Assembly (NCBI GenBank): GCA_964394085.1
Contig: CAYMWF010000011.1
Span: 27,926-91,925 of the forward strand
Direction of reading: 5' to 3'
DNA: 64,000 nt
Origin: an uncultured Gemmatimonadota bacterium
GTDB lineage: Bacteria; GCA-2686955; CAYMWF01
The first letter of the stretch is position 1. Each line of letters starts with the position of its first letter. This document shows, piece after piece, positions 29,235-56,289 of this stretch. The notes beneath the pieces were generated by a model, which did not search any database, had not been told where the DNA came from, and worked only from the letters and a program-made list of their open reading frames with translations. The translations under genes and the position numbers were made by a program.

Positions 29235-30144
29235 GGCTGGTACCTCCTTCGCAACTACGGTTAACACCTGGGTGACTGCTTCGAGCTTCCGCTCTTCCTT
29301 TCCGCCTCGCATTCTTATCCTCCTCTCTTTATCCTCGAGCGTCTCCGGGGTAATCCGCTCTTCGTTTCGCCCCGCTTCCGCTCCACAACCTTCACCCCGA
29401 ATAGTAGGCAGACCCGGCGGCGAAGAAGCTTTCCGGATCAAATGCCGACCTTGCTAAAGGTTCGAAACGGAGCAATCCGCGCTGTTTGGAACCTGTTTGA
29501 TGGAGTCATCAGCGGCTTGCGCCGGGAGGGGTGGATTAAAGGGGGTCGGCTTCTCGGATCGGGCGGATCCGCAGATCGTCGAAGCGCCTGAGGATCCCCG
29601 GGGAAGGGGCGGCGCCGTGAACGGAGGGTATGTCTGTGTCGCCGGTTTCCGACAGGTTACTTGAACCACCAGGAGTTACCCGGTCCGCCGTAGGCTCCGA
29701 TATCGGAGCGGGCACCGTCGGGGTACCAGTCCGGCCAGCGTGGATGTTTATCGTACAGCCTGTCCTCGAGTGCCGGATCGCCCGTGTCGATACAGGGTGA
29801 TTGCGGGAGCAGCAGGTAATCGAAACCCATGCCGGATGTGAAAAGAGGCGATTCGTCAATGTTCCCCTGCCCGGGCCAACCTCCCTGGACATCGGAGTAG
29901 GAGACGATCGGCGAACCTCCGAATACGTAGATTTCATCGGGAAGATTCCCCCAGAGAATACAGTTGGTGACAATCGGGGAACTGTTCAGGCAGTACAGGG
30001 CACCTCCCACATCCGGGGCGATGTTGTCCGATATAGTGCAATTGGTGATGACGACCGCGGATTCGTTGCAGAAGATACTGTGCTGCTTCAGTCGGAATTG
30101 GAATTTCCCTCGAGATGAGTTAGTAATAACTCAAGGAGGGGACC

Positions 30145-30456
30145 ATGACGAAAAAGAAGCGACGTAAGTTCAGCCCGGAGGAGAAGGTTTCGATTTTACG
30201 GAAGCATCTTCTGGAGGGTGTACCAGTATCGGATCTGTGTGATGAATATGGCCTTCATCCGAATTTGTTTTATCGATGGCAGAAGGCGTTTTTCGAACAC
30301 GGAGCCATGGTTTTTGACCGCCCCCATCCGAACAAATCATCGAAGACAGAGCGGCGTATCGGCGAGCTGGAGGCGAAGTTACAAAAGAAGGATGGCGTGA
30401 TCGCCGAGATCATTGCGGAGTTGATCGCGGAAAAAAAAAGACGTGGGGAGCTATGA
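30145..30456 (+). CDS. IS3-family transposase OrfA (HTH DNA-binding subunit)
   Basis: 103 aa with HTH_Tnp-like N-terminus (KFSPEEKVSILRKHLLEGVPVSDLCDEYGLHPNLFYRWQK) and leucine-zipper-like tail. GGAGGGG SD. Confidence 0.85.
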   Translation: MTKKKRRKFSPEEKVSILRKHLLEGVPVSDLCDEYGLHPNLFYRWQKAFFEHGAMVFDRPHPNKSSKTERRIGELEAKLQKKDGVIAEIIAELIAEKKRRGEL

Positions 30457-31421
30457 GCGGGTCCTGGGTTCAGCCGGATCTTCGTGACCAGGTCGTTGAT
30501 TTCGTTCGGGAATGGTCAACGAAAACCGAGATGGCGAAGGGTCGGCTTGTTCGCTGGATCGGCATCGGGATGAGCAAGTACTCAGACTGGCAATGTCGAT
30601 ACGGCAAGGTCAATGAGCATAATGCCTGGATTCCTCGAGATCACTGGCTTGAGAATTGGGAAAGACGAGCAATCATAGAGTATTACCTGTCACATACGGA
30701 AGACGGCTACCGTCGCGTGGCGTATATGATGATGGATGAAGACATTGTAGCTGTCAGTCCGAGTTCAGTCTACCGCGTGCTCTCGAATGCTTGTGTGATT
30801 CGCCGCTGGGAACGTAATCGAAGCCGTAAGGGGCGCGGTTTTGTGCAACCGTCCGGCCCGCATCAGCAATGGCATATCGATATTTCTTATGTGAATATCC
30901 GGGGCACATTCTACTATTTATGCAGTATTTTGGACGGATACAGTCGGTATATCGTGCATCACGAGATCCGGGAGCAAATGAAGGAAGAAGATGTCGAAAT
31001 CATCCTGCAGCGGGCGACAGAAGCGTTTCCGGACAGGCGGCCACGGGTGATCAGCGACAATGGTCCTCAATTCCTGGCGAAAGACTTCAAGCAGTTTCTT
31101 AAGCTGAAAGGAATGGATCATGTTCGAACGTCGCCTTATTATCCTGAGAGCAATGGGAAGCTGGAACGTTGGCACCAGAGTCTGAAAAGGGAATGCATAC
31201 GCCCCAAAACGCCGCTGAGCCTGGAAGATGCCCGGCGCGTTGTGGCGAATTTTGTTAACCATTACAATACGAAGCGGCTTCATAGCGCGATCGGATATAT
31301 TACACCGGAGGATAAGCTCAATGGGAAGCAAGAAATAATCTTCGCAGAACGAGAAAGAAGACTGTCAGCAGCGAGAGAACGACGGGCTAAGAACCGAGCG
31401 GCTGCTCGCTGTGCAGCATGA
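30453..31421 (+). CDS. IS3-family transposase OrfB (DDE integrase-fold catalytic subunit; expressed as OrfAB by -1 frameshift)
   Basis: DDE triad context: WHIDISYV (D), VISDNGPQF (D), YYPESNGKLERW (E). In the -1 frame relative to orfA. Confidence 0.85.
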   Translation: MSGSWVQPDLRDQVVDFVREWSTKTEMAKGRLVRWIGIGMSKYSDWQCRYGKVNEHNAWIPRDHWLENWERRAIIEYYLSHTEDGYRRVAYMMMDEDIVAVSPSSVYRVLSNACVIRRWERNRSRKGRGFVQPSGPHQQWHIDISYVNIRGTFYYLCSILDGYSRYIVHHEIREQMKEEDVEIILQRATEAFPDRRPRVISDNGPQFLAKDFKQFLKLKGMDHVRTSPYYPESNGKLERWHQSLKRECIRPKTPLSLEDARRVVANFVNHYNTKRLHSAIGYITPEDKLNGKQEIIFAERERRLSAARERRAKNRAAARCAA

Positions 31422-32831
31422 ATAACCAACTAATTCATGAAGGTGAAATTTCCATTTTACGCTGAACCAGTACAATACCGCCTCCGTAATCGGTAATCGT
31501 ATTGTTCGAGATCACGCAGTTAACGAGCAACGCGGGAGAGTCGTAGCAATAGACCCCACCCCCGAAGGCGTATGAACCGATCGCCGCATTGCTCGACACC
31601 GTTGTGCCTACGAGCACCGGCGACGAGTAGTCGCATCGCATCCCGCCACCGTAGTACTCTGCAACATTCTCGGTAATCGCGCACCTCAGCAGCGCGGGAT
31701 CCGCCTCGTAGCAGCAGACTCCGCCTCCATTGTATAGTGCCGTATTGTTCTTGAAAATACAGTGCGAGACTGTCGGATACGAATCCTCGCAATAGAGCCC
31801 CCCGCCATAGGAAGCTCTCCCGTTTACCACCGTCATTCCGATCAGCCGCGCGAAATGGCCCTCGCCAAGCCATAAGCGGAACCCTCTGCCGTTGTTTTCA
31901 CAATCGATCACCGTCGACTCCGGTCCATGCTCGGACATGACGGTGATCCCCTTTCCGTGATACTCGATATCCCTGTTCCCGGGGCCGCAGAACGTGCCGT
32001 CCGCGACAAGCACCGTATCACCGGAGCGAGCAGCGTCGATCCCTTCCTGAATCGTTGCGAATTCAGCGGGGACCTCGAGCATTGCGCCGGATACCGGTGC
32101 GAACGGCGCTGTAATCAGCAAAAAAAACATGAATCGATACATTGCTTTCTCTCCTGTAATCCGGCATTTGAATGAGAGAGGCAGCCGGATTCCCGCAGAT
32201 GTTGAGCCCTGAGTCGAAGTAGTGATAGATTTGTTGTAACCATGATTAACTAGTTATCCATATTTTAGCAGATCGACGACAATCATATCAAGTGAAATCA
32301 TCGAATCTCGGGGTGATGTTCAGGGATTGCTTAAAGGTAAGTGCTTTTGCTTTACTATCTTATCCCGAACATACGGATGCCGGAAGCGGTCGAAACAAAG
32401 CGCTTCGGAAATGATTGAAGTTCAAGGAAAACGGCTTGCCGGATGATGGAGGTGGTGCTTGAGACCGGTACGGTAACGAATTATCTTCTTGCGACTGTTC
32501 CGTTCGAATACGGAACGGCCGGGATTGATGGAATCAGCCCCTGTAGAGCCCGTTTAACTGGATGGTCCAGCCGACAGCTGCCGTCGACAGAGAAGAAGCG
32601 AGCCGGAACCGCAGCCGAAAACCGACGTATACAACCCAACAACCAGCAAAGACAAACTTCCCTGACCGGGAAGCTAAGGGGTGCTTTTCCTCCTGACTTC
32701 TCCCTATTGTTAACTGGGGAATCTATTTTACCGGATGGAAACCGGGCTTTTGGGGAGAAGGTTGCACCCTCCCCGGTGGATTCGATCGACTGATTTTAAT
32801 CACGTCACTTATTTTCATGGGTCATAATTAA

Positions 32832-32855
32832 CCCTAATTTCGGGAAAGGGGAAAG
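32832..32855 (+). other. Canonical G-quadruplex-forming motif GGGAAAGGGGAAAGGGGAAAGGGG
   Basis: Four G-runs of 3 or more separated by AAA loops; read directly from sequence. Confidence 0.5.
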
Positions 32856-32899
32856 GGGAAAGGGGACAGATTGATTTTTTCTAATTCTCCTGCCGAATT

Positions 32900-32915
32900 T
32901 TTGTCACGTGACAAA
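32900..32915. promoter_or_regulatory. 16-bp perfect palindrome TTTGTCACGTGACAAA (CACGTG core); related half-site AATCACGTCACTT at 32798-32810
   Basis: Direct inspection. Lies in the 1.1-kb AT-rich region upstream of the beta-helix gene. Confidence 0.3.
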
Positions 32916-33292
32916 TAATGCCGATTCCTGCGCCGAGGTTGAACTCATGCAACGTTTTTGTTGAGAGTGAGTTACGAATGTTGACCTTTCCGCAGCAGGG
33001 AAGCTATGATCCTGGTCCTGTATGAAGAATCAGACAGGGTTTATCTTTGGTAAACGGATCAGAGCTTCCAAGCGGAGTGGTTGGCATCTTTTTGGGTTCA
33101 AAGATTATTTTGCGCAATAGCCAGTATTTGTTATACTGAATTTGCGGTTTTACTGAAGAACTCCCAGCAGGCTTACAATTCGATGAAATGTATGCACTTA
33201 TTCAACCCCTCTTCACTGGATAATCGAAGGCTGTCAATTTAGCCAGATGAAATGCTTGACTCCACTTATTCTGTAGAGATGGGTCATAAACC

Positions 33293-36178
33293 ATGAAGCA
33301 ATTCGCGGTAAGATGGATAGTTCTCTTTTTTGTCCTGCTGCCTGCGTTTTCCGCATTCGGCGACAGGTATCAAAATGATAAGGTTTTCGATTCATTAATC
33401 CATGTTCCGGGAGATTTTCCAACTATTCAGAGTGGAATAAACGCCGCTTCGGACGGAGATACCGTTCTAGTCGCAGCGGGTGTGTATACCGGAAATGAAA
33501 ACAGGAACATCGACTTCTGCGGCAAGGCGATAACGGTCATTTCTGAAAAAGGAGCCGCAGAGACAATCATCGACTGTCAGGAAGAAGCAAGAGGAGTTAT
33601 ATTCCAAAGCGGTGAAGGTTCTGAATCTAAACTCATCGGTTTCACCATCCAAAATGGCTATGTCGATAATGACGGCGGTGGTATCTACTGCGTCGACTCT
33701 TCACCCGAATTCAGCGATTGTATAGTTAAATGGAATACCATCATCAATAATGACGATGGCTGTGGCGGCGGGTTCTATTTTTACAACTCCTCATCTACTA
33801 TATCGAATTGTACGATTTCAAACAACTACGTGGATTGCCTGAACGTATCCTGGGGCTCAGGATTCTACTGTGAAAACTCCGTTCTGAGTCTATCCGGATG
33901 CACTATTTCCGGCAATACCATGTTCGGCGGTATCTCCGGATACGGCGGCGGAGCTCGTTGCAGCGATTCCAACCTCATAATATCAAATTGCGTATTTTCG
34001 ATTAATACGGCTCTTGGCGATCACAGCGGCGCCGGCGGCGGACTCTCCTTAGGCAACTGCACAATAATATTGGATGATTCACATATTTTCAGGAACTCCT
34101 TCCGGACCTATTCCGGCGGCCCTGTGGGCGGGGGTATTTCCCAGGGTGGCGGTTCTCTGAGTATAGTGAATTGTTCGATTACCGGCAACGGCTGCAGCGG
34201 TCCCGGAAATTCCCACGGAGGCGGTATTCGATCGCGGGGAATTCTGATGATTGAAAACTCCATATTTTCGAACAATTCCGTCACGAGTGAGGTATTTTCA
34301 TCGTATGGAGGAGGTATATCATGCGCAAACGCCACGATATCGAATTCAATGATCTTCGGAAATAAATCGGAAGGCGGTACATACAGCAGCGCTTACGGTG
34401 GCGGTGTGGACGGGTCGCCGTTGATGCGAAACTGTCTGATATTTGACAACACTGCAACATCATCGCATTACGCCGGTTGTCCGGGAGGGGGAGTATATGG
34501 GCCGGCAACCCTCATAAACTGCACGATTACCCGGAACTCCTCCTACGCCGGGGGAGCGGATATTGCAAATATCGAGGAGATCACGAACTGTATCGTCTGG
34601 AATGACGATATAAGCGGTTCGCCGAATGTTACATATTCAGATATCGAAGGCGGCTGGCCCGGTGAAGGCAATATCGATTCAGATCCCATGTTTTTCAATC
34701 CGGGATCAGACGACTTTCATCTTACGGTCTCATCTCCCTGCATAGACGTGGGATCAGACGCCGGGATTTACGACGATATCGACGGCGATACGCGGCCCCA
34801 GGGCGAATGGTTCGACATCGGATCCGACGAATTCTCCCTCGAAAGGCCTGTGATCAGAATTCGTCCGGATTCCTTTTTTGTAACCTGTCTGATCGGAGGA
34901 CACGCAGAAGACGCGGAACTGGTTATATCTAATGCGGGAGTTGAGGATCTTACATATTCGATCGATCCGGAAACTGAATTCTGGTTAGCGCTCGTCGGTG
35001 AATTGGAAGGAGTCCTGGCGCATAACGACAGCGTCCTCATCCTTCTGCAATTCGATTCCGGGGAATTATTACCCGGCAGGTATGATGACGTGATCAGAAT
35101 CGACAGTAATGACACGCAGGTGCCGCAGTTGGATATCCAGGTGGATCTCTGGGTTTGCCAGGGTATCATACGTGTTCCGGAAGATTACGAAACCATTCAG
35201 GCGGGAATCGATGCGGCGGATTCGGGAGACACCGTGCTCGTAGCCGCAGGCACCTATACCGGATCGGGGAATATCAATCTGACCTTCAACGGCAAGCCGA
35301 TTACCCTCATGTCAGAGGACGGTTTAGAAAAAACAGCCATCGACTGCGCCGAAGCAGGTAGAGGTGTATCTTTCAACAACGATGAGGGACCGGGTTCCCG
35401 GTTTGTTGGTTTCACCATTATCAACGGTTATCAGCCAGGTGCCGGCGGGGGCGGAATCCGTTGTATTCATACCGATCCGACCATCACTTCATGTCTCCTG
35501 TCGGGCAATGACGCTGAATACGGAGGGGGGATATATTGCTGGGGTTCCTCACCGTCGATAACCGGTTGTTCAATCTCAGGAAACTCAGCCGAATACGGCG
35601 CTGGAATTAAGTGCATAGGGGCCGATCCCCTTATTACTCACTGTCTGATCTCAGAGAACTCTGCAAATTCAGGTGCGGCGATCTATTGCGAACATTCCAG
35701 TCCGATCATTACAAACTGTCTAATAAAGGGGAATATAGCCGAGTGGCACGGAGCCTGTTATATGAGGGACTCAGACGAACCTGTTTTCATCAACTGCACT
35801 TTTACTGAAAATTCGGGCGGTGGATTCTATTGCTATGAATGGAGTCATCCGAAACTGAAAAACTGCATCCTGTGGAACGACACCCCTTTTGAAATTTCGC
35901 TCGGATACGAAGGTTCGATTACTGTTGACTACTCTGACGTCCAGGGCGGTTGGACGGGTGTCGGAAACATCGATACCGACCCGCTCTTTTCAATATATGC
36001 GAATTTCGATTACATCCTACGAACAGCATCTCCTTGCATAGATTCGGGAGATCCATATATAGAAGACTGTCTGTATGATTGGCATCCTCTCTGCCCGGCC
36101 TGGTACTTGAACGGTTCCCGTTCGGACATGGGCGCTTACGGCGGCCCTGGCAACATCTTCTGGCTGAAATGGTGGTAA
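33293..36178 (+). CDS. Secreted tandem-duplicated right-handed parallel beta-helix repeat protein (pectate-lyase-like fold), 961 aa
   Basis: Signal peptide MKQFAVRWIVLFFVLLPAFSAFG. Two modules each opening with (F/Y)xTIQ(S/A)GI(N/D)AA(S/D)(D/S)GDTVLVAAG(V/T)YTG, followed by many G-x-I-x-C/NC beta-helix coils. C-terminus ..GAYGGPGNIFWLKWW. Confidence 0.7.
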   Translation: MKQFAVRWIVLFFVLLPAFSAFGDRYQNDKVFDSLIHVPGDFPTIQSGINAASDGDTVLVAAGVYTGNENRNIDFCGKAITVISEKGAAETIIDCQEEARGVIFQSGEGSESKLIGFTIQNGYVDNDGGGIYCVDSSPEFSDCIVKWNTIINNDDGCGGGFYFYNSSSTISNCTISNNYVDCLNVSWGSGFYCENSVLSLSGCTISGNTMFGGISGYGGGARCSDSNLIISNCVFSINTALGDHSGAGGGLSLGNCTIILDDSHIFRNSFRTYSGGPVGGGISQGGGSLSIVNCSITGNGCSGPGNSHGGGIRSRGILMIENSIFSNNSVTSEVFSSYGGGISCANATISNSMIFGNKSEGGTYSSAYGGGVDGSPLMRNCLIFDNTATSSHYAGCPGGGVYGPATLINCTITRNSSYAGGADIANIEEITNCIVWNDDISGSPNVTYSDIEGGWPGEGNIDSDPMFFNPGSDDFHLTVSSPCIDVGSDAGIYDDIDGDTRPQGEWFDIGSDEFSLERPVIRIRPDSFFVTCLIGGHAEDAELVISNAGVEDLTYSIDPETEFWLALVGELEGVLAHNDSVLILLQFDSGELLPGRYDDVIRIDSNDTQVPQLDIQVDLWVCQGIIRVPEDYETIQAGIDAADSGDTVLVAAGTYTGSGNINLTFNGKPITLMSEDGLEKTAIDCAEAGRGVSFNNDEGPGSRFVGFTIINGYQPGAGGGGIRCIHTDPTITSCLLSGNDAEYGGGIYCWGSSPSITGCSISGNSAEYGAGIKCIGADPLITHCLISENSANSGAAIYCEHSSPIITNCLIKGNIAEWHGACYMRDSDEPVFINCTFTENSGGGFYCYEWSHPKLKNCILWNDTPFEISLGYEGSITVDYSDVQGGWTGVGNIDTDPLFSIYANFDYILRTASPCIDSGDPYIEDCLYDWHPLCPAWYLNGSRSDMGAYGGPGNIFWLKWW

Positions 36179-37409: not shown

Positions 37410-38246
37410 ATGAAAAAGGAAACCGATTTCAGCAAAGGTGAAACTCTGGAATGCCCCGACTGGCAGATCCTCTTCACATCCATAAATCAGCCTGACCGGC
37501 TCACCGCCGACGAGCTCAATTATTGCCGGGAGCATATAAAATATTGTGCAGTATGCGCCGAAGATATTTCCGTTTTCAAGGAAAAGCTCGAAAAACCAGA
37601 CCCCATCGAGCCGTCCTCCGACGAGCTCGATCTTCTCGTACAGCAGATAACCCGAAAGGATGACGCCCTTTCGGTTCCCCACTGGCTGAAAGATCTGGCC
37701 GGCTCATACCCGTCGCCGGGTATCCGGCCGTTCGATCTCGGCAAGTTCAGAGACTGGGTGCAGAGCCGCCTCAGAGACAAACTGGCGAGTGCGGTCGAGT
37801 TTTTCGATATATCCTCGCTCAGTATGCCGGTTCTGAGTCCGAGCGTCATCCGGAGCGCGGGTGGCGGGTACGACCATTCCGCCGTCGAAGAACTTACGGT
37901 TCTCGCCGCCAGGGCCCGTTCAGCGGTGGATGCGGGTGAGTTCAGGGATGCCGGCGAGCTCTACCACCGGATGAGCGGCCTTCTGGACGACGAGTCTCTG
38001 GATCTCGATCTCAAGTTCCTGGCGGGTATAGCGTACCTGAGGGCGGGCGACGCCCGGAGCGCCTGCGAGCTCCTCGCCGGCACCATCGACGAAGAAGCAT
38101 CGGAAGAAAACTACTGGGCTCTCGCCTGCGCCCACCTGGTGGCCGATGACCTCGAATCCGCATACAAGAACCTTCAGATCGTAGAAAAAATCGGCGGCGA
38201 ACTGAGTGAACGCGCACGTATACTCCTGGACGATATTCAGCATTGA
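37410..38246 (+). CDS. Soluble zinc-binding anti-sigma factor (ZAS motif H-x3-C-x2-C) with C-terminal TPR-like helical domain
   Basis: ..ECPDW..(28 aa)..CREHIKYCAVC.. = C..H-x3-C-x2-C. No TM segment. Directly follows the sigma gene (41-bp gap). ATG 37410 with AAAGGGGAG SD. Confidence 0.55.
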   Translation: MKKETDFSKGETLECPDWQILFTSINQPDRLTADELNYCREHIKYCAVCAEDISVFKEKLEKPDPIEPSSDELDLLVQQITRKDDALSVPHWLKDLAGSYPSPGIRPFDLGKFRDWVQSRLRDKLASAVEFFDISSLSMPVLSPSVIRSAGGGYDHSAVEELTVLAARARSAVDAGEFRDAGELYHRMSGLLDDESLDLDLKFLAGIAYLRAGDARSACELLAGTIDEEASEENYWALACAHLVADDLESAYKNLQIVEKIGGELSERARILLDDIQH

Positions 38247-38283
38247 TCGCTATTTCCACCGCCTGTCTCCCACGACGGTTAAT

Positions 38284-41200
38284 ATGATCTCCAGAGAAAT
38301 ACTTCAGAAATTCCTGGATGCCCCCCTCAGGATCAGCGAGTGGACTCTCCTGGCGGAGAATACCGCCCTGTACGCTCCCGAGGGTATCCGCTTGTGTAAA
38401 AATGCCAGGGAAACCGCCCTCGAGCAGGGGAACGGAGCGGCGGCGGGTTCGATTTCCGAGAAGTTGATCACGCTGGAAAAATATTCATCCCAAGATCCGG
38501 AACATGTCTTTTTCGGGAAAACACTTGACGACTCGTGCCGCAGCCTGATCCACCAGCCTGTACCACGGGATATTCCGGATCTGGTAATCAAAACAAGGCA
38601 GCGATCCGAAACCGGGGAATGGGAAAAGGCTATCGCCGACATCGAAAACCGGCTGGAATCCCGAACGGAAGCGTCGGATGGTTTTCTTCGCAGCGAACTC
38701 CTCCGGATTCTCGGACGGTTGTACAGAGCATGCCCGACCGGTGATACTCCCGCCCGCAAGGAACGGGCGCTCCAGCTTTATTCCGAAGCCGAAAAAGTTT
38801 TCAGCCGCAGTAACTTCCCGCGGGAATGGGCCATCCTGAGATCCAACGCGGCCAACGTATTCCTTGTTCGTCAGAAAGGAACCAGGGCCGAGAATTTCGA
38901 ACGCGCGACGGCGCTCAATGAAGAAGCAATCGATATCCTCACGGCGACCGCTTTCCCTGTCGACCATGCAAGAGTCTGCCATAACCAGGCCCTGGTCTTC
39001 ACATACCGCATAAGAGGCGATTATGCCGAAAACCTCGAAAAAGCGATCGCCCTTTTCGAGAAAGCGCTCAAGATATACAAAGCGGAAACTTTCCCCCGGC
39101 AGTGGGCTTCGATTCTGGGTATGCTCGCGGGAGCCTACCATTCCCGCCTCGAAGGCAGCCGGGAGGAGAACGAAGAACGTGCAATCGAACTCTACCGGTC
39201 GGCTCTCGACTGCGCGTTTTCCGGATTGCCGCCCGCGGTTCGCGCCCGCATAAAAAACAACATGGCTCTTTCATATAAAGAACGGATCAGGGGCAGCAAA
39301 GCCCGGAATCTTGAAAACGCGATCAAGCTTCACAAAGAAGCGCTTCGCACCTTTTCGCGGGAAAAACATCCTGCTCAATGGGCTGAGACGTGCAAAAACC
39401 TGGCTAACGCCTACTGTGCAAGAAAACATGGGACATCAATTGAAAACCTGTCCTTCGCAATACCGTTGTACGAGGATGCGCTGACCGTTCTGACCCGCGA
39501 ACGCTCGGCGGACGGCTGGGCCAAAACCAGTTACGCCCTGGGCAACGTTCTGCGGCGCAAATGGGAAGAGGACGGGGAAACCGGGGCGTTGTCGGCGGCG
39601 GTTACATCGTACCACGATTCATTGTCGGTCTGGCAGCCGGATACTTTCCCGGGGAGCTGTCTCCAGTCCGCCATCGCCCTGGCGGAGACCGAAGCGCACC
39701 GGCGGAACTGGAACGGCGTCCAGGAAGCCGCGCTTATCGCCAGGGAAGCGGATCGCACCCTGCAGATATCCTCCGTAACCCTGTCGGGCCGGTCTGAAAA
39801 CATAGAACTGAGCGCCAGGCTCTACTATTCCGCCTCTCTCGCGAAGGCGCAGCAGGGAGATTACCCGGGCGCCGTGGAATGGCTCGAACAGGGAAAGACC
39901 CGCGAACTCGAAGAATCTCTGGCCAGGGACAGGGCCATTTTCGAACATCGGCTTTCGACGGAGGATGCCGCGGAGTACAGGGAACTCCTGTCCCGACTCA
40001 GGCGGATAGAAACCGGAGAGCGGCTGGGATCTTTAAGCGGAAGCGCTTTCACCGCCGCGGTGGAGGAAACCCGGCGGGTTCGACGGAGGTTCGAAAACGT
40101 TATCGAAAGAATCCGCGGGTATGAACCCTCCTTTCTCGCGGATCTCGAACTGGACGACCGCTGTTTCGCCCCCCTCCTCACCGAACCTGGAAAGGCGTAT
40201 GTCCTTTTCAATGTCACCTCGGCCGGAACCGCCGTGATACTGCTTCACGGGGTTTCCGGGGAATCCCGGTTTGCCGGATTCTTCGAAGAAGCTTTCAAAC
40301 TATCGGATCTGCGGCGCCTTTCGAAAAAATGGATGGAGCAGGTCGAACGGGCCGAGAAGGGTGAAAACCGGACCCGCACCGGCCGGAAATCATGGTCGAA
40401 ACGATTGAACGATCTCTGCCGGGAGCTGCACGACGCCATATTCGGCGAAGTCCGCGAATGGCTTCGGGAAAACGGATCGGCTATTAACAAGCTGGTATTG
40501 GTTCCGCATCTTGACCTTCATTCGCTTCCCCTTCACCTCATGCGCTACGACACCGAAGAGGGCGCGCGGTTCCTGATGGACGATTACGAGATCGGTTTCG
40601 CGCCGAGCCTGTCTCTTCTCCTCATGCTGACCCGCAGGGAGGGCGAAACTTCGCCACATGCACCCTCCCGCCTCCGGGAAAGCGCCGATATCCGACACTT
40701 TCCGGCAGAAGAACCGCTCGAACTGCTCGCCGTGGCGAATCCCACAGGCGATTTGAACTGGTCGGCGGATGAGGCGGCTGAAATAGCCGGGCTGTTCGGC
40801 GGCCCATGCCTGGTGCTTTCAGGCGCGGAAGCCACCAGGGACGCCTTTTTCGCGGCGGCTCCAAGGGCCGGGGTGCTCCACCTGTGCTGCCATGGCACAT
40901 ACGATCACGAAAATCCCTGGAAATCTTCACTCATCCTCGCGGATGCAAGGGCGGACGGAAGCGGACCAACCGGCCCGTCCGGAAAAAAAATCTCGCTTGA
41001 CGAGATTTTTTCGAGTATCTCTTTAAATAGAACCAGATTGGTCGTGCTCAGCGCTTGTGAAACCGGCATCATCGATACCGGCGGCAGGTCGGACGAGTTT
41101 GTCGGCTTGCCCGGCGGTTTTCTCAGGGGCGGCGCCATGTGTGTCGTGGCAAGCCTGTGGTCGGTGGACGATCGTGCCACGGCAGCCCTCATGACGCGTT

Positions 41201-41334
41201 TCTACCAGGGTGTAGCGGCGGAAAACCGACCGCCCTCGGAAGCTTTGAAACTGGCGCAGCATCACCTCCGGGCGAACAGGCAATGGCGGAGCCCCTATTA
41301 CTGGGGCGCGTTCCGGGTCCTCGGCATCAGCTGA
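38284..41334 (+). CDS. TPR-CHAT protein: N-terminal array of about 12 TPR-like repeats plus C-terminal CHAT (caspase-like) protease domain with His/Cys dyad
   Basis: Repeats ..ENLERAIALNEEAI.., ENLEKAIALFEKAL, ENEERAIELYRSAL, RNLENAIKLHKEAL, ENLSFAIPLYEDAL. CHAT His in VLHLCCHGTYD and Cys in LVVLSACETGI; ..VASLWSVDD... Start ATG 38284 chosen; ORF extends to 38206 overlapping the anti-sigma stop. Confidence 0.75.
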   Translation: MISREILQKFLDAPLRISEWTLLAENTALYAPEGIRLCKNARETALEQGNGAAAGSISEKLITLEKYSSQDPEHVFFGKTLDDSCRSLIHQPVPRDIPDLVIKTRQRSETGEWEKAIADIENRLESRTEASDGFLRSELLRILGRLYRACPTGDTPARKERALQLYSEAEKVFSRSNFPREWAILRSNAANVFLVRQKGTRAENFERATALNEEAIDILTATAFPVDHARVCHNQALVFTYRIRGDYAENLEKAIALFEKALKIYKAETFPRQWASILGMLAGAYHSRLEGSREENEERAIELYRSALDCAFSGLPPAVRARIKNNMALSYKERIRGSKARNLENAIKLHKEALRTFSREKHPAQWAETCKNLANAYCARKHGTSIENLSFAIPLYEDALTVLTRERSADGWAKTSYALGNVLRRKWEEDGETGALSAAVTSYHDSLSVWQPDTFPGSCLQSAIALAETEAHRRNWNGVQEAALIAREADRTLQISSVTLSGRSENIELSARLYYSASLAKAQQGDYPGAVEWLEQGKTRELEESLARDRAIFEHRLSTEDAAEYRELLSRLRRIETGERLGSLSGSAFTAAVEETRRVRRRFENVIERIRGYEPSFLADLELDDRCFAPLLTEPGKAYVLFNVTSAGTAVILLHGVSGESRFAGFFEEAFKLSDLRRLSKKWMEQVERAEKGENRTRTGRKSWSKRLNDLCRELHDAIFGEVREWLRENGSAINKLVLVPHLDLHSLPLHLMRYDTEEGARFLMDDYEIGFAPSLSLLLMLTRREGETSPHAPSRLRESADIRHFPAEEPLELLAVANPTGDLNWSADEAAEIAGLFGGPCLVLSGAEATRDAFFAAAPRAGVLHLCCHGTYDHENPWKSSLILADARADGSGPTGPSGKKISLDEIFSSISLNRTRLVVLSACETGIIDTGGRSDEFVGLPGGFLRGGAMCVVASLWSVDDRATAALMTRFYQGVAAENRPPSEALKLAQHHLRANRQWRSPYYWGAFRVLGIS

Positions 41335-54066: not shown

Positions 54067-56289
54067 TCAGGGGCGGGATTCACCCTCCCGGCTGTCCGCA
54101 GAACCGGAATTCCGCTCAGCAGGATCGCCGGGATTGTCGTCTTCTGCGATCGGAACGGCCGTATCGGCTGTTTCATCCTCTACCCCTGCTGAAACTCCGG
54201 CAGCGGGAACGTCCCCGTCAGGCTCCGCTTCCTCCGCATCGAGATCGGCGATCTCCGCGGTCGAGGGATCGGTCTTACCGGAATCTCCTTCCATATCCTC
54301 CGGGTGATCGCCGTTCGGAGAACTCTTCTCTCCGCTGGAAGGAGGATCCGGCAGTTCCTTATGCTGAAGTATCAACCTGATGTCGGCTCCCGTAATACAT
54401 TCCCTCTCCAGAAGTTTGTCCGCGATGGCGTGCAATATGTCGATTTCCGCTTCCAGAATAGCGTTTGCGCGATCGTTCCCGCTGGTTACAAGTCTTCTGA
54501 CTTCCTTGTCGATATTGACGGCGGTCTGCTCGCTGTAGTCGCGGTGGGTCGCGATCTCCCGTCCCAGGAAGATTTCTTCCTGTTTCTTACCGAAGGTCAG
54601 CGGCCCCATCGTATCGCTCATCCCCCATTCGCAGACCATCTTGCGCGCGAGCCCGGATGCCTGCTCTATATCGTTCGCGGAACCATTGGTGGTTTTCTCG
54701 AAAATCAGCGTTTCGGCGGCTCTTCCGCCGAGCATGGTTGCGAGAAGACCCATGTAGTATTCTTTGGTTCGCAGATATTTTTCGTCTATGGGCAGGTGCT
54801 GGGTTACGCCGAGAGCCCGGCCGCGCGGAATTATGCTGACCTTGTGGACAGGGTCCATACCCGGAATTTTGCTGGTTACAAGTGCGTGCCCGGCCTCATG
54901 ATACGCGATTACCTTCTTTTCTTCTTCGCTGATGAGAAGACTTTTACGCTCCGTTCCCATGAGCACCTTGTCCCGGGCATCCTCGAAATCGATCATCTCT
55001 ACGGATTTCTTGCCGCGACGGGCGGCGAGAAGCGCCGCTTCATTCACCATGCTGGCGATATCCGCCCCGGAGAAGCCGGGGGTTCCGCGGGCCAGCACCG
55101 AGAAATCCACGTTCTCGTCGACCGGAATTTCCCTTACATGCACTTTCACGATACCGAGCCGTCCGGTCAGGTCGGGCCTGTCGACGACGATCTGGCGATC
55201 GAACCTGCCGGGCCGCAGCAACGCGGGGTCGAGCACATCGGGCCGGTTGGTGGCGGCGACGAGAATGACGCCTTCGTTCGAGTCGAAACCGTCCATTTCA
55301 ACCAGAAGCTGGTTGAGGGTCTGCTCCCTCTCATCATGCCCCCCGCCGAGCCCTGCGCCGCGGTGGCGCCCCACCGCGTCGATTTCGTCTATGAATATTA
55401 TGCACGGGGCATTCTTCTTGCCCTGCTCGAAAAGATCGCGGACCCGCGAGGCGCCGACACCTACGAACATCTCGACGAAATCGGAGCCGCTCATGCTGAA
55501 AAACGGAACGCCGGCCTCACCTGCGATAGCCCGTGCAAGGAGCGTTTTCCCCGTCCCCGGGGGGCCGAGAAGCAGCGCTCCCTTGGGAATCTTGCCGCCG
55601 AGCTTCTGGAATTTGGCGGGATCTTTGAGAAACTCGATGATTTCCTGGACTTCTTCCTTGGCTTCATCGATGCCGGCGACATCCTTGAAGGTTACATCCG
55701 GTTTATCCTCGGTGAGAAGTTTCGCCTTGCTCTTGCCGAAGGAGAACGCCCTGTTGCCGCCTCCCTGCATCTGGCGCATAAGGAAAAGCCAGAGCAGCAG
55801 GAAGAAGACGATAGGGAGATATGCCCAGAGGCCGCCCCACCATTTCGAAACGGGAGGCTTGACTTCGATTTCAACCCCGGCGTCGGTAGATCGTAATTTT
55901 TCCACCAGCTGCCAGAAATCCATCTCCGGGGCCGATGTCTTGAATTTTCTGGATGCCAGGACGCTGGTGTCATCCTCCTGCACCACCGCTCCCTTGAACG
56001 AGCCTGTAATTTCGCGACCGTCAAGGTGAACCTTCTCTACGCGACCCGCTTCTACTTCCGCGAGGAACTCGGTAAACTTCAGGATTTTTATGTTTGTCTG
56101 CTCCCCCTGAAAAAGATTATATGCGAGAAGCGACATCAGAATTATGGCGAACCAGAATGCAAGAGTCCTGGAGCCGCCGCCGAACGCCGGAAGATTCGGC
56201 TTCAACCCTTTGCCGCCGTCGCCTTCTTTTTTACCGAGGGGGCGCTTACCGCCGGAAGCCCCGCCCGATTTCTTACTTTGCGAGCCCAT
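54067..56289 (-). CDS. ftsH: ATP-dependent zinc metalloprotease FtsH
   Basis: Two N-terminal TM helices; Walker A GPPGTGKT; SRH; zinc motif HEAGHA; acidic C-terminal tail. Confidence 0.9.

What the first reader, a model, noticed from the sequence alone, without database searches (positions are those of the whole stretch)
29657..32142. Recent, precise IS3-family insertion splitting a secreted beta-helix gene
Removing positions 30079-31478 (the IS plus one ATAC copy) restores a continuous minus-strand reading frame, ..TDYGGGIFCNESAVVITNCTISDNIAPDVGGALYCLNSS... The upstream part carries a signal peptide and the downstream part ends in the GAYGGPG..W C-terminus. The gene is thus a paralog of the intact 961-aa gene 1.8 kb away. 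The IS has an intact 4-bp target duplication, imperfect ~30-bp IRs with TG/CA tips, and an orfA/orfB pair. A canonical A9G slippery run (30431-30440) precedes the orfA stop and the ATGA overlap. Intact duplications and an otherwise undegraded host ORF imply a very recent event. The element is probably still active, so it is a useful marker for strain-level variation.
Basis: seen in the sequence. Interest (0 to 1): 0.55.

Follow-up and report, generated by a model that had tools for sequence, protein, structure and literature searches.

The report
IS3-family insertion splitting a beta-helix gene
A 1.4-kb jumping gene of the common IS3 family has landed inside a gene for a secreted beta-helix protein in an uncultured bacterium and cut it in two; this is a real but ordinary event.

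Summary
Window 30079-31474 is a 1396-bp insertion sequence with imperfect terminal inverted repeats (TG...CA) and a 4-bp target duplication (ATAC). It has an orfA/orfB pair in frames 0/-1 and an A9 run just before the orfA stop. Cutting out the element plus one ATAC restores a 361-aa minus-strand ORF with a signal peptide, a confidently modelled right-handed beta-helix, and the family's C-terminal motif.

The ends are proven by comparison, not just by the weak repeats. Near-identical (about 99%) copies sit in at least six other sequence contexts in metagenome contigs, and flanks from different contigs rejoin across 4-bp duplications (ACAG, ATGA). The fused OrfAB passes the NCBIfam IS3 cut-off (200 vs 160 bits) and keeps the DD(35)E+K residues.

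Three inferences need qualifying:
- The same insertion appears in five other assemblies, with flanks identical over 6.6 kb in one, and no empty site was found. It looks fixed or dominant, not a demonstrated strain marker.
- The slippery site in frame 0 is A_AAA_AAA, not A_AAA_AAG. The conserved length of nine As also fits transcriptional slippage.
- The 361-aa gene matches only one module of the 961-aa neighbour (45% identity).

Verdict: a new member of a known kind, of low interest. One loose thread is that four of seven junction contexts lie in or beside beta-helix family genes.

The parts
30079..31474 (+). Complete IS3-family insertion sequence, 1396 bp, 50% G+C against 56% for the window.
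   Evidence: The boundaries are fixed by copies with different flanks. There is a single copy in the window.
30075..30078 (.). Left copy of the 4-bp target-site duplication, ATAC.
   Evidence: The 4-bp length is corroborated by the ACAG and ATGA duplications rebuilt from other contigs.
31475..31478 (.). Right copy of the 4-bp target-site duplication, ATAC.
30079..30111 (+). Left terminal inverted repeat, TGTGCTGCTTCAGTCGGAATTGGAATTTCC...
   Evidence: In a gapped alignment with the right end, 26 of 35 columns match, and 0 of 3000 random pairs reach that score.
31442..31474 (-). Right terminal inverted repeat. Its reverse complement reads TGTACTGGTTCAGCGTAAAATGGAAATTTCACC, and the plus strand ends ...GTACA.
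   Evidence: The end is shared by L001, L002, L003, L013 and L014, each with a different flank.
30145..30456 (+). orfA, 103 aa: a helix-turn-helix DNA-binding protein with heptad spacing I72-L79-I86-L93.
   Evidence: Pfam HTH_Tnp_1, E 4.7e-13. Heptads.
30431..30440 (+). A9 run plus G, the recoding site. The frame-0 reading is G AAA AAA AAA with A_AAA_AAA as the slippery heptamer.
   Evidence: Exactly nine As are kept in relatives with 71% nucleotide identity, and the -1 frame peptide KTWGA... that follows is conserved.
30453..31421 (+). orfB, 322 aa: DDE (rve) catalytic domain in the -1 frame, with D143, D202, E238 and K245.
   Evidence: Pfam rve, E 5.6e-21. NCBIfam IS3, 166.6 bits alone and 200.4 bits when fused. 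Conservation across 120 homologues.
31479..32142 (-). 5' part of the split host gene: signal peptide plus beta-helix coils (native residues 1-223, whose last codons extend into the right-hand ATAC copy at 31475-31478). As it stands, the ORF runs 12 codons into the IS and stops at 31435.
   Evidence: The same truncated product, P0121, is found in JGI contigs.
29657..30078 (-). 3' part of the split host gene (residues 224-361), with the last beta-helix coils and the conserved C-terminal motif ...DIGAYGGPGNSWWFK.
33293..36178 (+). Intact 961-aa paralogue, transcribed divergently and built of two beta-helix modules. Context, not part of the IS.
   Evidence: By tblastn, the restored protein is 45% identical to 35153-36169 and 41% identical to 33323-34009. 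Pfam Beta_helix.

Best explanation
A 1396-bp insertion sequence of the IS3 family transposed into codon 223/224 of a 361-codon gene for a secreted right-handed beta-helix protein, in an uncultured bacterium of the FCB group. The insertion is antisense to the gene.

**Shown:**
- the element's exact ends
- the 4-bp target duplication
- the two-ORF, -1 frame layout
- an intact DD(35)E transposase
- the precise in-frame restoration of the host gene on excision
- near-identical copies of the element elsewhere

**Inferred from what is established for IS3-family elements:**
- The OrfAB transposase is made by a -1 shift at the A9 run. This happens either by ribosomal slippage on A_AAA_AAA or by RNA polymerase adding one A.
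- OrfAB binds the terminal repeats, copies the element out as a circle, and pastes it into a target cut with a 4-bp stagger. Repair of the stagger creates the ATAC duplication.
- OrfA alone acts as a regulator.

**Consequence for the host:** the gene is inactivated. What remains is a signal-peptide-bearing fragment of 223 native residues plus 12 IS-encoded residues. The 138-residue C-terminal part has no start of its own.

**Age:** the insertion is young enough that neither half has picked up a stop or a frameshift. It is nevertheless already shared by every sampled assembly that covers the site.
For: - **Excision:** restores a 361-aa ORF.
- **Family scores:** Pfam HTH_Tnp_1, rve and Beta_helix hits. 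NCBIfam transpos_IS3 gives 166.6 bits for OrfB alone and 200.4 bits for the fused OrfAB, against a cut-off of 160, in one stretch over model positions 1-366 of 369.
- **Catalytic residues:** D143, D202, E238 and K245 are invariant across 120 homologues.
- **Ends:** identical element ends abut seven unrelated flanks.
- **4-bp rule:** L002-left plus L001-right rejoin across ACAG into another beta-helix ORF, and L005-left and L002-right share ATGA.
- **Independent assemblies:** the same junctions occur in L004, L007, L008 and L014. The L007 flanks are 100% identical to the window over 6.6 kb.
- **Recoding site:** the A9 run and the -1 frame peptide after it are conserved in relatives with 71% nucleotide identity.
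- **Host protein model:** AlphaFold gives pLDDT 85, with a beta-helix from residue 21 to about 290, and the break falls inside strand 223-226.
- **Literature on A9 runs in IS elements:** PMC6211511 and PMC1088944.
Against: - Nothing contradicts the core statement.
- The window's copy carries 8 differences from every metagenome copy, including those at the same site. One is G114C, at a position that is G in 99 of 120 homologues. This particular copy could therefore be impaired, or its sequence could be an assembly mosaic of several copies.
- No RNA structure downstream of the A-run stands out from shuffled controls (z from -0.07 to -1.15).
- No transposition intermediate or empty site was observed, so activity and recency are inferred, not shown.
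- The subgroup within IS3 could not be assigned.
Confidence: 0.93

Rival explanations
1. The insertion is not recent. It is old and fixed, and the two gene halves stay open because at least the signal-peptide-bearing N-terminal fragment is still useful and under selection.
For: - Every assembly that covers the site carries the IS (L004, L007, L008, L014, P0121).
- No intact allele exists among about 15 billion proteins.
- A decaying copy of the same IS elsewhere (L009-L012: 94-98% identity, orfA start ATG changed to CTG, OrfB cut to 139 aa in L011) shows the IS has been in this community for a long time.
Against: - The flanks are 100% identical over 6.6 kb between assemblies, so the sampled populations are nearly clonal and say little about age.
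- The duplication is perfect.
- The C-terminal half has no start codon or signal peptide of its own, yet it is also undegraded.
- A beta-helix cut inside a strand and missing its last coils and its conserved C-terminal domain is unlikely to fold.
Confidence: 0.12
2. The element belongs to the IS481 family, or is another rve-type element, and not to IS3.
For: OrfB also matches NCBIfam transpos_IS481 at 152-168 bits. The two families are close relatives.
Against: - The IS481 score is below its cut-off of 224, while the IS3 score is above its cut-off of 160.
- The transposase is split into two frames with a conserved A-run, and the fused product matches the IS3 model end to end.
- From general knowledge of the family, IS481 elements encode a single unshifted ORF.
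Confidence: 0.04
3. The junctions are an assembly artefact: a chimeric join of a repeated IS with unrelated flanks in a metagenome-assembled genome.
For: Some metagenome contigs that carry this IS are chimeric or rearranged. L002 and L013 have non-matching 4-bp flanks. The window's IS differs internally from all other assemblies at 8 positions.
Against: Both junctions of this site recur in two independent assemblies that span the whole element (L004, L014). The flanks rejoin in frame across a perfect 4-bp duplication.
Confidence: 0.02

Closest known systems
IS3 family insertion sequences (prototypes IS3, IS150, IS911, IS2)
   Same: - Length of 1.4 kb and TG...CA terminal repeats of about 30 bp.
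- A short target duplication of 4 bp.
- orfA (HTH plus heptad zipper) and orfB (DD(35)E, K at +7) in frames 0 and -1, with an A-rich recoding site just before the orfA stop.
- The NCBIfam IS3 model is passed.
- The tips read TGTACTG, as in E. coli IS150.
   Different: - OrfB is only 21-30% identical to E. coli IS3, IS150 and IS2, and about 34% identical to the best plasmid-borne IS3 transposases.
- The A-run is nine long, and the frame-0 heptamer is A_AAA_AAA, not A_AAA_AAG.
- No convincing downstream stimulatory structure was found.
- The subgroup is unassigned. IS51 and IS407 references were not available.
IS1447 subgroup of IS3 (Clostridium thermocellum), PMC6211511
   Same: An IS3-family element with a run of nine As at the 3' end of orfA. 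In IS1447 this run was shown to give transcripts with 8 or 10 As, at about 16% each.
   Different: IS1447 needs a +1 frame change to make OrfAB and is enriched in Firmicutes. Here orfB is in the -1 frame, so one added A or a -1 ribosomal slip is required. No transcript data exist for this element.
Right-handed parallel beta-helix / polymorphic-membrane-protein-repeat proteins with a choice-of-anchor-Q-like C-terminus (the host gene)
   Same: - Pfam Beta_helix, Chlam_PMP and NosD hits.
- A weak choice_anch_Q hit, E 0.0033 and below cut-off.
- The model is a regular beta-helix whose best PDB matches are pectate lyase Pel9A (1ru4), Rhombotarget A and PL6 lyases.
   Different: The structural matches are generic (TM 0.4-0.5, 9-15% identity). 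No catalytic residues were tested, so the function of the family is unknown. The conserved C-terminal 60 residues are modelled with low confidence.

Membership tests
IS3 family | Transposase encoded by two consecutive, overlapping ORFs, with orfB in the -1 frame relative to orfA. | tested here: met
   orfA is 30145-30456 and orfB is 30453-31421. The frame offset is -1 and the overlap is ATGA.
IS3 family | A-rich slippery or recoding motif near the end of orfA that gives an OrfAB fusion. | tested here: met
   The A9 run is at 30431-30439, with A_AAA_AAA in frame 0. The fusion matches the IS3 model in one stretch. The run and the -1 frame peptide are conserved in relatives. The shift itself was not observed.
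IS3 family | OrfB carries an rve-type DD(35)E catalytic triad with K/R seven residues after the E. | tested here: met
   D143, D202 and E238, with 35 residues between the last two, and K245. The triad residues are invariant in 120 homologues; K245 was read from this sequence only.
IS3 family | OrfA has a helix-turn-helix followed by a leucine-zipper-like heptad. | tested here: met
   Pfam HTH_Tnp_1, E 4.7e-13. Heptad residues I72, L79, I86 and L93. The zipper was judged by spacing only.
IS3 family | Imperfect terminal inverted repeats of 20-40 bp ending 5'-TG...CA-3'. | tested here: met
   A gapped match at 26 of 35 columns, with TGT and ACA tips. The ends were verified against seven flank contexts.
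IS3 family | Target-site duplication of 3-5 bp. | tested here: met
   ATAC here. ACAG and ATGA were rebuilt from other copies.
IS3 family | Curated family HMM score above threshold. | tested here: met
   NF033516 transpos_IS3 scores 200.4 bits against a cut-off of 160. IS481 scores 167.7 against a cut-off of 224.
IS3 family | Copy-out-paste-in transposition through a circular intermediate with a junction promoter. | not testable with these tools
   This needs read-level or experimental detection of abutted IRR-IRL junctions.
IS3 subgroup (IS2 / IS3 / IS51 / IS150 / IS407) | OrfB clusters with the subgroup's reference transposases. | tested here: inconclusive
   Identity to E. coli IS3 InsF, IS150 InsK and IS2 InsD is 21-30%, with none clearly closest. 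The IS2 TnpB model scores only 42 bits. No IS51 or IS407 references were to hand.
Secreted right-handed beta-helix repeat protein (host gene) | N-terminal signal peptide and stacked beta-helix coils. | tested here: met
   Pfam Beta_helix, E 3.1e-15. The AlphaFold model has a beta-helix from residue 21 to about 290 with pLDDT above 93. The N-terminus has R3 followed by a hydrophobic stretch at residues 4-16. The signal peptide was judged by inspection; no predictor was run.

The most novel reading that the evidence does not exclude
This IS may preferentially insert into, or be preferentially retained in, genes of one family of secreted beta-helix (PMP-repeat) proteins. Four of the seven distinct junction contexts found for it lie in or within about 110 bp of such genes.

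Two of these insertions (the window site and L002-inverted) fall 3 nt apart within the same GGx-GGT-ATC (Gly-Gly-Ile) repeat motif, in the same orientation relative to the gene. If this is real targeting, the element would work as a switch that knocks out individual surface-protein paralogues. That would be comparable to the REP-specific IS3 members.
Probability: 0.15. Interest if true: 0.45.

Novelty: new member of a known kind. Interest (0 to 1): 0.15.

Why it matters
It matters little beyond annotation. The two ORFs at 29657-30010 and 31435-32142 should be annotated as one gene interrupted by a mobile element, and the 1396-bp element is a new, unnamed IS3-family member from an uncultured FCB-group bacterium.

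Two things are mildly useful:
- A length of exactly nine As is kept at the recoding site across elements with 71% nucleotide identity, even though the codon phase differs. This adds a case to the question of transcriptional versus ribosomal slippage in IS3 elements.
- The repeated hits in beta-helix surface-protein genes hint that this gene family is either a favoured target or a dispensable one in this community.

Tried and rejected
- **OrfB look-up:** an exact-protein look-up of OrfB found nothing, although the same sequence is in the protein collection as P0001. OrfA and P0002 were used instead.
- **Empty-site DNA search:** a search with a wobble-tolerant 41-nt pattern found nothing in metagenome contigs or genome contigs. 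The IS left end was not found there either. Those collections therefore lack this population and the negatives carry no weight. The informative negative is the protein search.
- **Sample provenance:** a paper search for the sample accessions gave nothing, so the environment is unknown.
- **Frameshift stimulator:** folding the RNA downstream of the A-run showed no structure better than shuffled controls, so no stimulator is claimed.
- **Subgroup:** comparison with E. coli IS3, IS150 and IS2 was inconclusive. Plasmid hits are only about 34% identical and are named generically.
- **Mosaic hypothesis:** I tested whether the window's 8 private differences came from the diverged L011-type copy. Only 2 of 6 in the cluster match, so this was rejected.
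- **Other interrupted genes:** the flanks of the other insertion sites have no near-identical protein among the retrieved hits. Intact alleles of those genes could not be looked up.
- **Relatives:** elements at about 75% protein identity (L018-L029) are not in beta-helix genes. Any target preference is therefore not a property of the wider clade.
Full report
**What is in the sequence.**
- Window 30079-31474 is a 1396-bp block that starts TGTGCTGCTTCAG... and ends ...CTGAACCAGTACA. It is flanked on both sides by ATAC (30075-30078 and 31475-31478).
- Deleting 30079-31478 joins the two minus-strand ORF pieces, 31435-32142 and 29657-30078, into one 1086-nt frame of 361 codons. It reads through ...TDYGGGI|FCNESAVV... 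to ...GAYGGPGNSWWFK*.
- The element's two arms align with three small gaps at 26 of 35 columns. None of 3000 random sequence pairs from the window reached that score. An ungapped repeat finder does not report them as a single pair, so the repeats alone would be thin evidence.
- The block has 50% G+C against 56% for the window, and it occurs only once in the window.

**The element's genes.**
- orfA (30145-30456, 103 aa) matches Pfam HTH_Tnp_1 (E 4.7e-13). It has I/L residues at 72, 79, 86 and 93, a heptad spacing.
- orfB (30453-31421, 322 aa) matches rve (E 5.6e-21). It lies in the -1 frame and overlaps the orfA stop in ATGA.
- In an alignment of 120 homologues, D143, D202 and E238 are invariant. 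There are 35 residues between the last two, and K245 lies seven residues after the E. Together these form the DD(35)E+K signature.
- OrfB alone scores 166.6 bits against NCBIfam transpos_IS3 (cut-off 160).
- A fusion made by a -1 shift in the A-run scores 200.4 bits, in one stretch over model positions 1-366 of 369. IS481 reaches 167.7 bits against a cut-off of 224.
- The element is therefore a member of the IS3 family.
- It is distant from cultured references. The best plasmid-borne IS3 transposases are about 34% identical, and E. coli IS3, IS150 and IS2 are 21-30% identical. The subgroup stays unassigned.
- Thousands of homologues at 66-80% identity exist in metagenomes.

**The recoding site.**
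- The A9 run (30431-30439) is read in frame 0 as G AAA AAA AAA G A. The frame-0 slippery heptamer is therefore A_AAA_AAA.
- Two related elements with 71% nucleotide identity (L018, L024) also have exactly nine As at this place. In L024, however, the run starts in a different codon phase and is followed by C.
- The -1 frame peptide that follows (KTWGA-M/L-S/T-G...) is conserved. The frame-0 tail and the orfB ATG are not.
- This argues that the fusion is the selected product and that run length matters.
- Runs of nine As drive transcriptional slippage in IS elements generally (PMC1088944) and in the IS3-family element IS1447 (PMC6211511). Adding one A to the mRNA is thus as good a mechanism here as ribosomal -1 frameshifting.
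- No downstream RNA structure stands out from shuffled controls.

**Independent copies fix the ends and the 4-bp rule.** Contigs encoding the identical OrfA or a 99%-identical OrfB carry the same element at 98.7-99.3% identity.

| Site | Junction with the IS | Source |
|---|---|---|
| W | ...ATAC\|IS (this site) | window, L004, L014 |
| X | ...ACAG\|IS | L002 |
| C | ...ATGA\|IS | L005 |
| Y | ...CCAC\|IS (inverted copy) | start of L002 |
| N | ...AATC\|IS | L009-L012 |
| Z | ...AAAT\|IS | L013 |
| X | IS\|ACAG... | L001, L013 |
| C | IS\|ATGA... | L002 |
| U | IS\|ATACAACC... | L003 |

- The left flank of L002 and the right flank of L001 share ACAG. Joined with one copy removed, they read as one continuous beta-helix ORF.
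- L005-left and L002-right share ATGA. So the duplication is 4 bp in at least three sites. Contigs L002 and L013, whose own two flanks do not match, are either assembly chimeras across a repeated element or products of recombination between copies.
- Copies differ from one another at 2-6 positions.
- A more diverged copy (L009-L012, 94-98% identity) has lost the orfA start (ATG changed to CTG). In L011 its OrfB is cut to 139 aa.
- The element therefore has both a recent burst and an older history in this community.

**How recent, and is it polymorphic?**
- The same insertion is present in JGI contigs L004, L007 and L008, and in ENA contig L014. L004 and L014 span the whole element with both junctions.
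- L007 is identical to the window over all 6.66 kb of flank. Its only two differences lie inside the IS.
- L014 has one flank difference, 31500 T>A, which changes Thr to Ser in the host gene.
- A search with the restored protein against about 15 billion predicted proteins found only the truncated fragment (P0121, which ends in the IS-encoded tail VLVQRKMEISPS). The next hits are at 48-51% identity or less. No uninterrupted allele is on record.
- DNA scans for the empty site were negative. Those collections do not contain the IS either, so they say nothing.
- Both gene halves are free of stops and frameshifts, and the duplication is perfect. This fits an event that is young in evolutionary terms.
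- Even so, the insertion looks fixed or dominant in the near-clonal population sampled. Its value as a strain marker is not shown.
- The window's IS copy has 8 differences from every other assembly, six of them within 80 bp (30773-30852). One is G114C, at a site that is G in 99 of 120 homologues.
- Whether this is a real haplotype, gene conversion, or repeat collapse in one of the assemblies cannot be decided here.

**The host gene.**
- The restored protein has an N-terminus with R3 followed by a hydrophobic stretch, and Pfam Beta_helix, Chlam_PMP and NosD matches.
- With an alignment of 32 homologues, AlphaFold gives a model of mean pLDDT 85. Residues 21 to about 290 form a regular beta-helix with pLDDT above 93. 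The insertion point, 223/224, falls inside strand 223-226.
- Matches in the PDB are generic right-handed beta-helices: pectate lyase Pel9A, Rhombotarget A and PL6 lyases, with TM 0.4-0.5. The biochemical function is unknown.
- The last 60 residues carry a motif that is nearly invariant across homologues (…SPCID.GDP…D.GAYGGPGN..W) but are modelled with low confidence.
- The restored protein is 45% identical to the C-terminal module of the neighbouring 961-aa protein (35153-36169) and 41% identical to the start of its N-terminal module. It is thus a paralogue of one module of a two-module protein.

**Organism.** FtsH from the window (54067-56289) is at most 62-65% identical to named sequences, which come from Zixibacteria, Gemmatimonadota and candidate division LCP-89. 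The source is an NCBI contig of 91,925 bp from an uncultured FCB-group bacterium.

**A loose thread.** Four of the seven junction contexts involve beta-helix family genes: the window site, sites X and Y in one gene, and site Z, about 110 bp upstream of another such gene. The window site and site Y fall 3 nt apart in the same GGx-GGT-ATC motif, in the same orientation. In the window such genes make up roughly 6% of the DNA. The sample is small, two sites share a gene, the flanks may come from more than one organism (35-44% G+C against 56%), and relatives at 75% identity are not in such genes. I therefore treat targeting as a possibility only.

**Verdict.** This is a correctly read, ordinary IS3-family insertion: a new member of a known kind and of low interest. 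The 'recent / strain marker' and 'canonical A6G' parts of the reading need the qualifications above.

Noticed in passing
L002:1-478, L001:1397-2005, L013:1-423 (metagenome loci): The same IS interrupts a second beta-helix gene twice: two copies lie head to head 423 bp apart, with duplications CCAC and ACAG. It also sits about 110 bp upstream of a third such gene. Four of the seven junction contexts involve this gene family.
   Followed up: partly
window 30773-30852, 31169, 31397: The window's IS copy has 8 differences from all metagenome copies, including those at the same insertion site. Six are clustered within 80 bp. One changes a conserved Gly (G114C in OrfB). The cause could be a real haplotype, gene conversion or an assembly mosaic.
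   Followed up: partly
L009-L012 (for example L011:1206-2152): A decaying copy of the same IS (94-98% identity) lies downstream of a 327-aa gene next to NADH-dehydrogenase-like genes. Its orfA start has changed from ATG to CTG, and OrfB is cut to 139 aa in L011.
   Followed up: partly
L018-L023 and L024-L029: Related but distinct IS elements (71% nucleotide and about 75% OrfB identity) occur in the same JGI sample series, in other gene contexts. They keep exactly nine As at the recoding site but lack an ATG for orfB.
   Followed up: partly
window 29657-29840 and 36000-36178; alignment A1: The beta-helix family ends in a nearly invariant C-terminal motif (SPCID.GDP ... D.GAYGGPGN..W) that AlphaFold models with low confidence. 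It may be a sorting or anchoring signal. There is only a weak choice-of-anchor-Q hit.
   Followed up: no
window 33293-36178: The 961-aa neighbour is built from two beta-helix modules, each resembling the 361-aa protein, joined by an Ig-like segment (a weak HYDIN/VesB-like hit). Its 5' third has unusually low G+C (43-46%).
   Followed up: no
window 32143-33292: A 1.15-kb spacer with low G+C (43-49%) lies between the two divergently transcribed beta-helix genes and has no convincing ORF.
   Followed up: no
window 31449-31476: A promoter-like pair of hexamers (TTTCCA, 16 nt, TACAAT) sits at the right end of the IS and reads outward, antisense to the 5' half of the host gene. Its -10 element is formed partly by the flank. 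This is a consensus match only.
   Followed up: no
window 38206-41334: A 1042-aa ORF has a weak TPR-CHAT (Csx29-like) match of 65 bits, against a cut-off of 300. No CRISPR context was examined.
   Followed up: no
TSDs across loci (window, L001-L013): The seven 4-bp target duplications (ATAC, ATAC, ACAG, ATGA, CCAC, AATC, AAAT) begin with A in six cases and loosely resemble ATAC. This may be a weak target preference, but the sample is too small to test.
   Followed up: no
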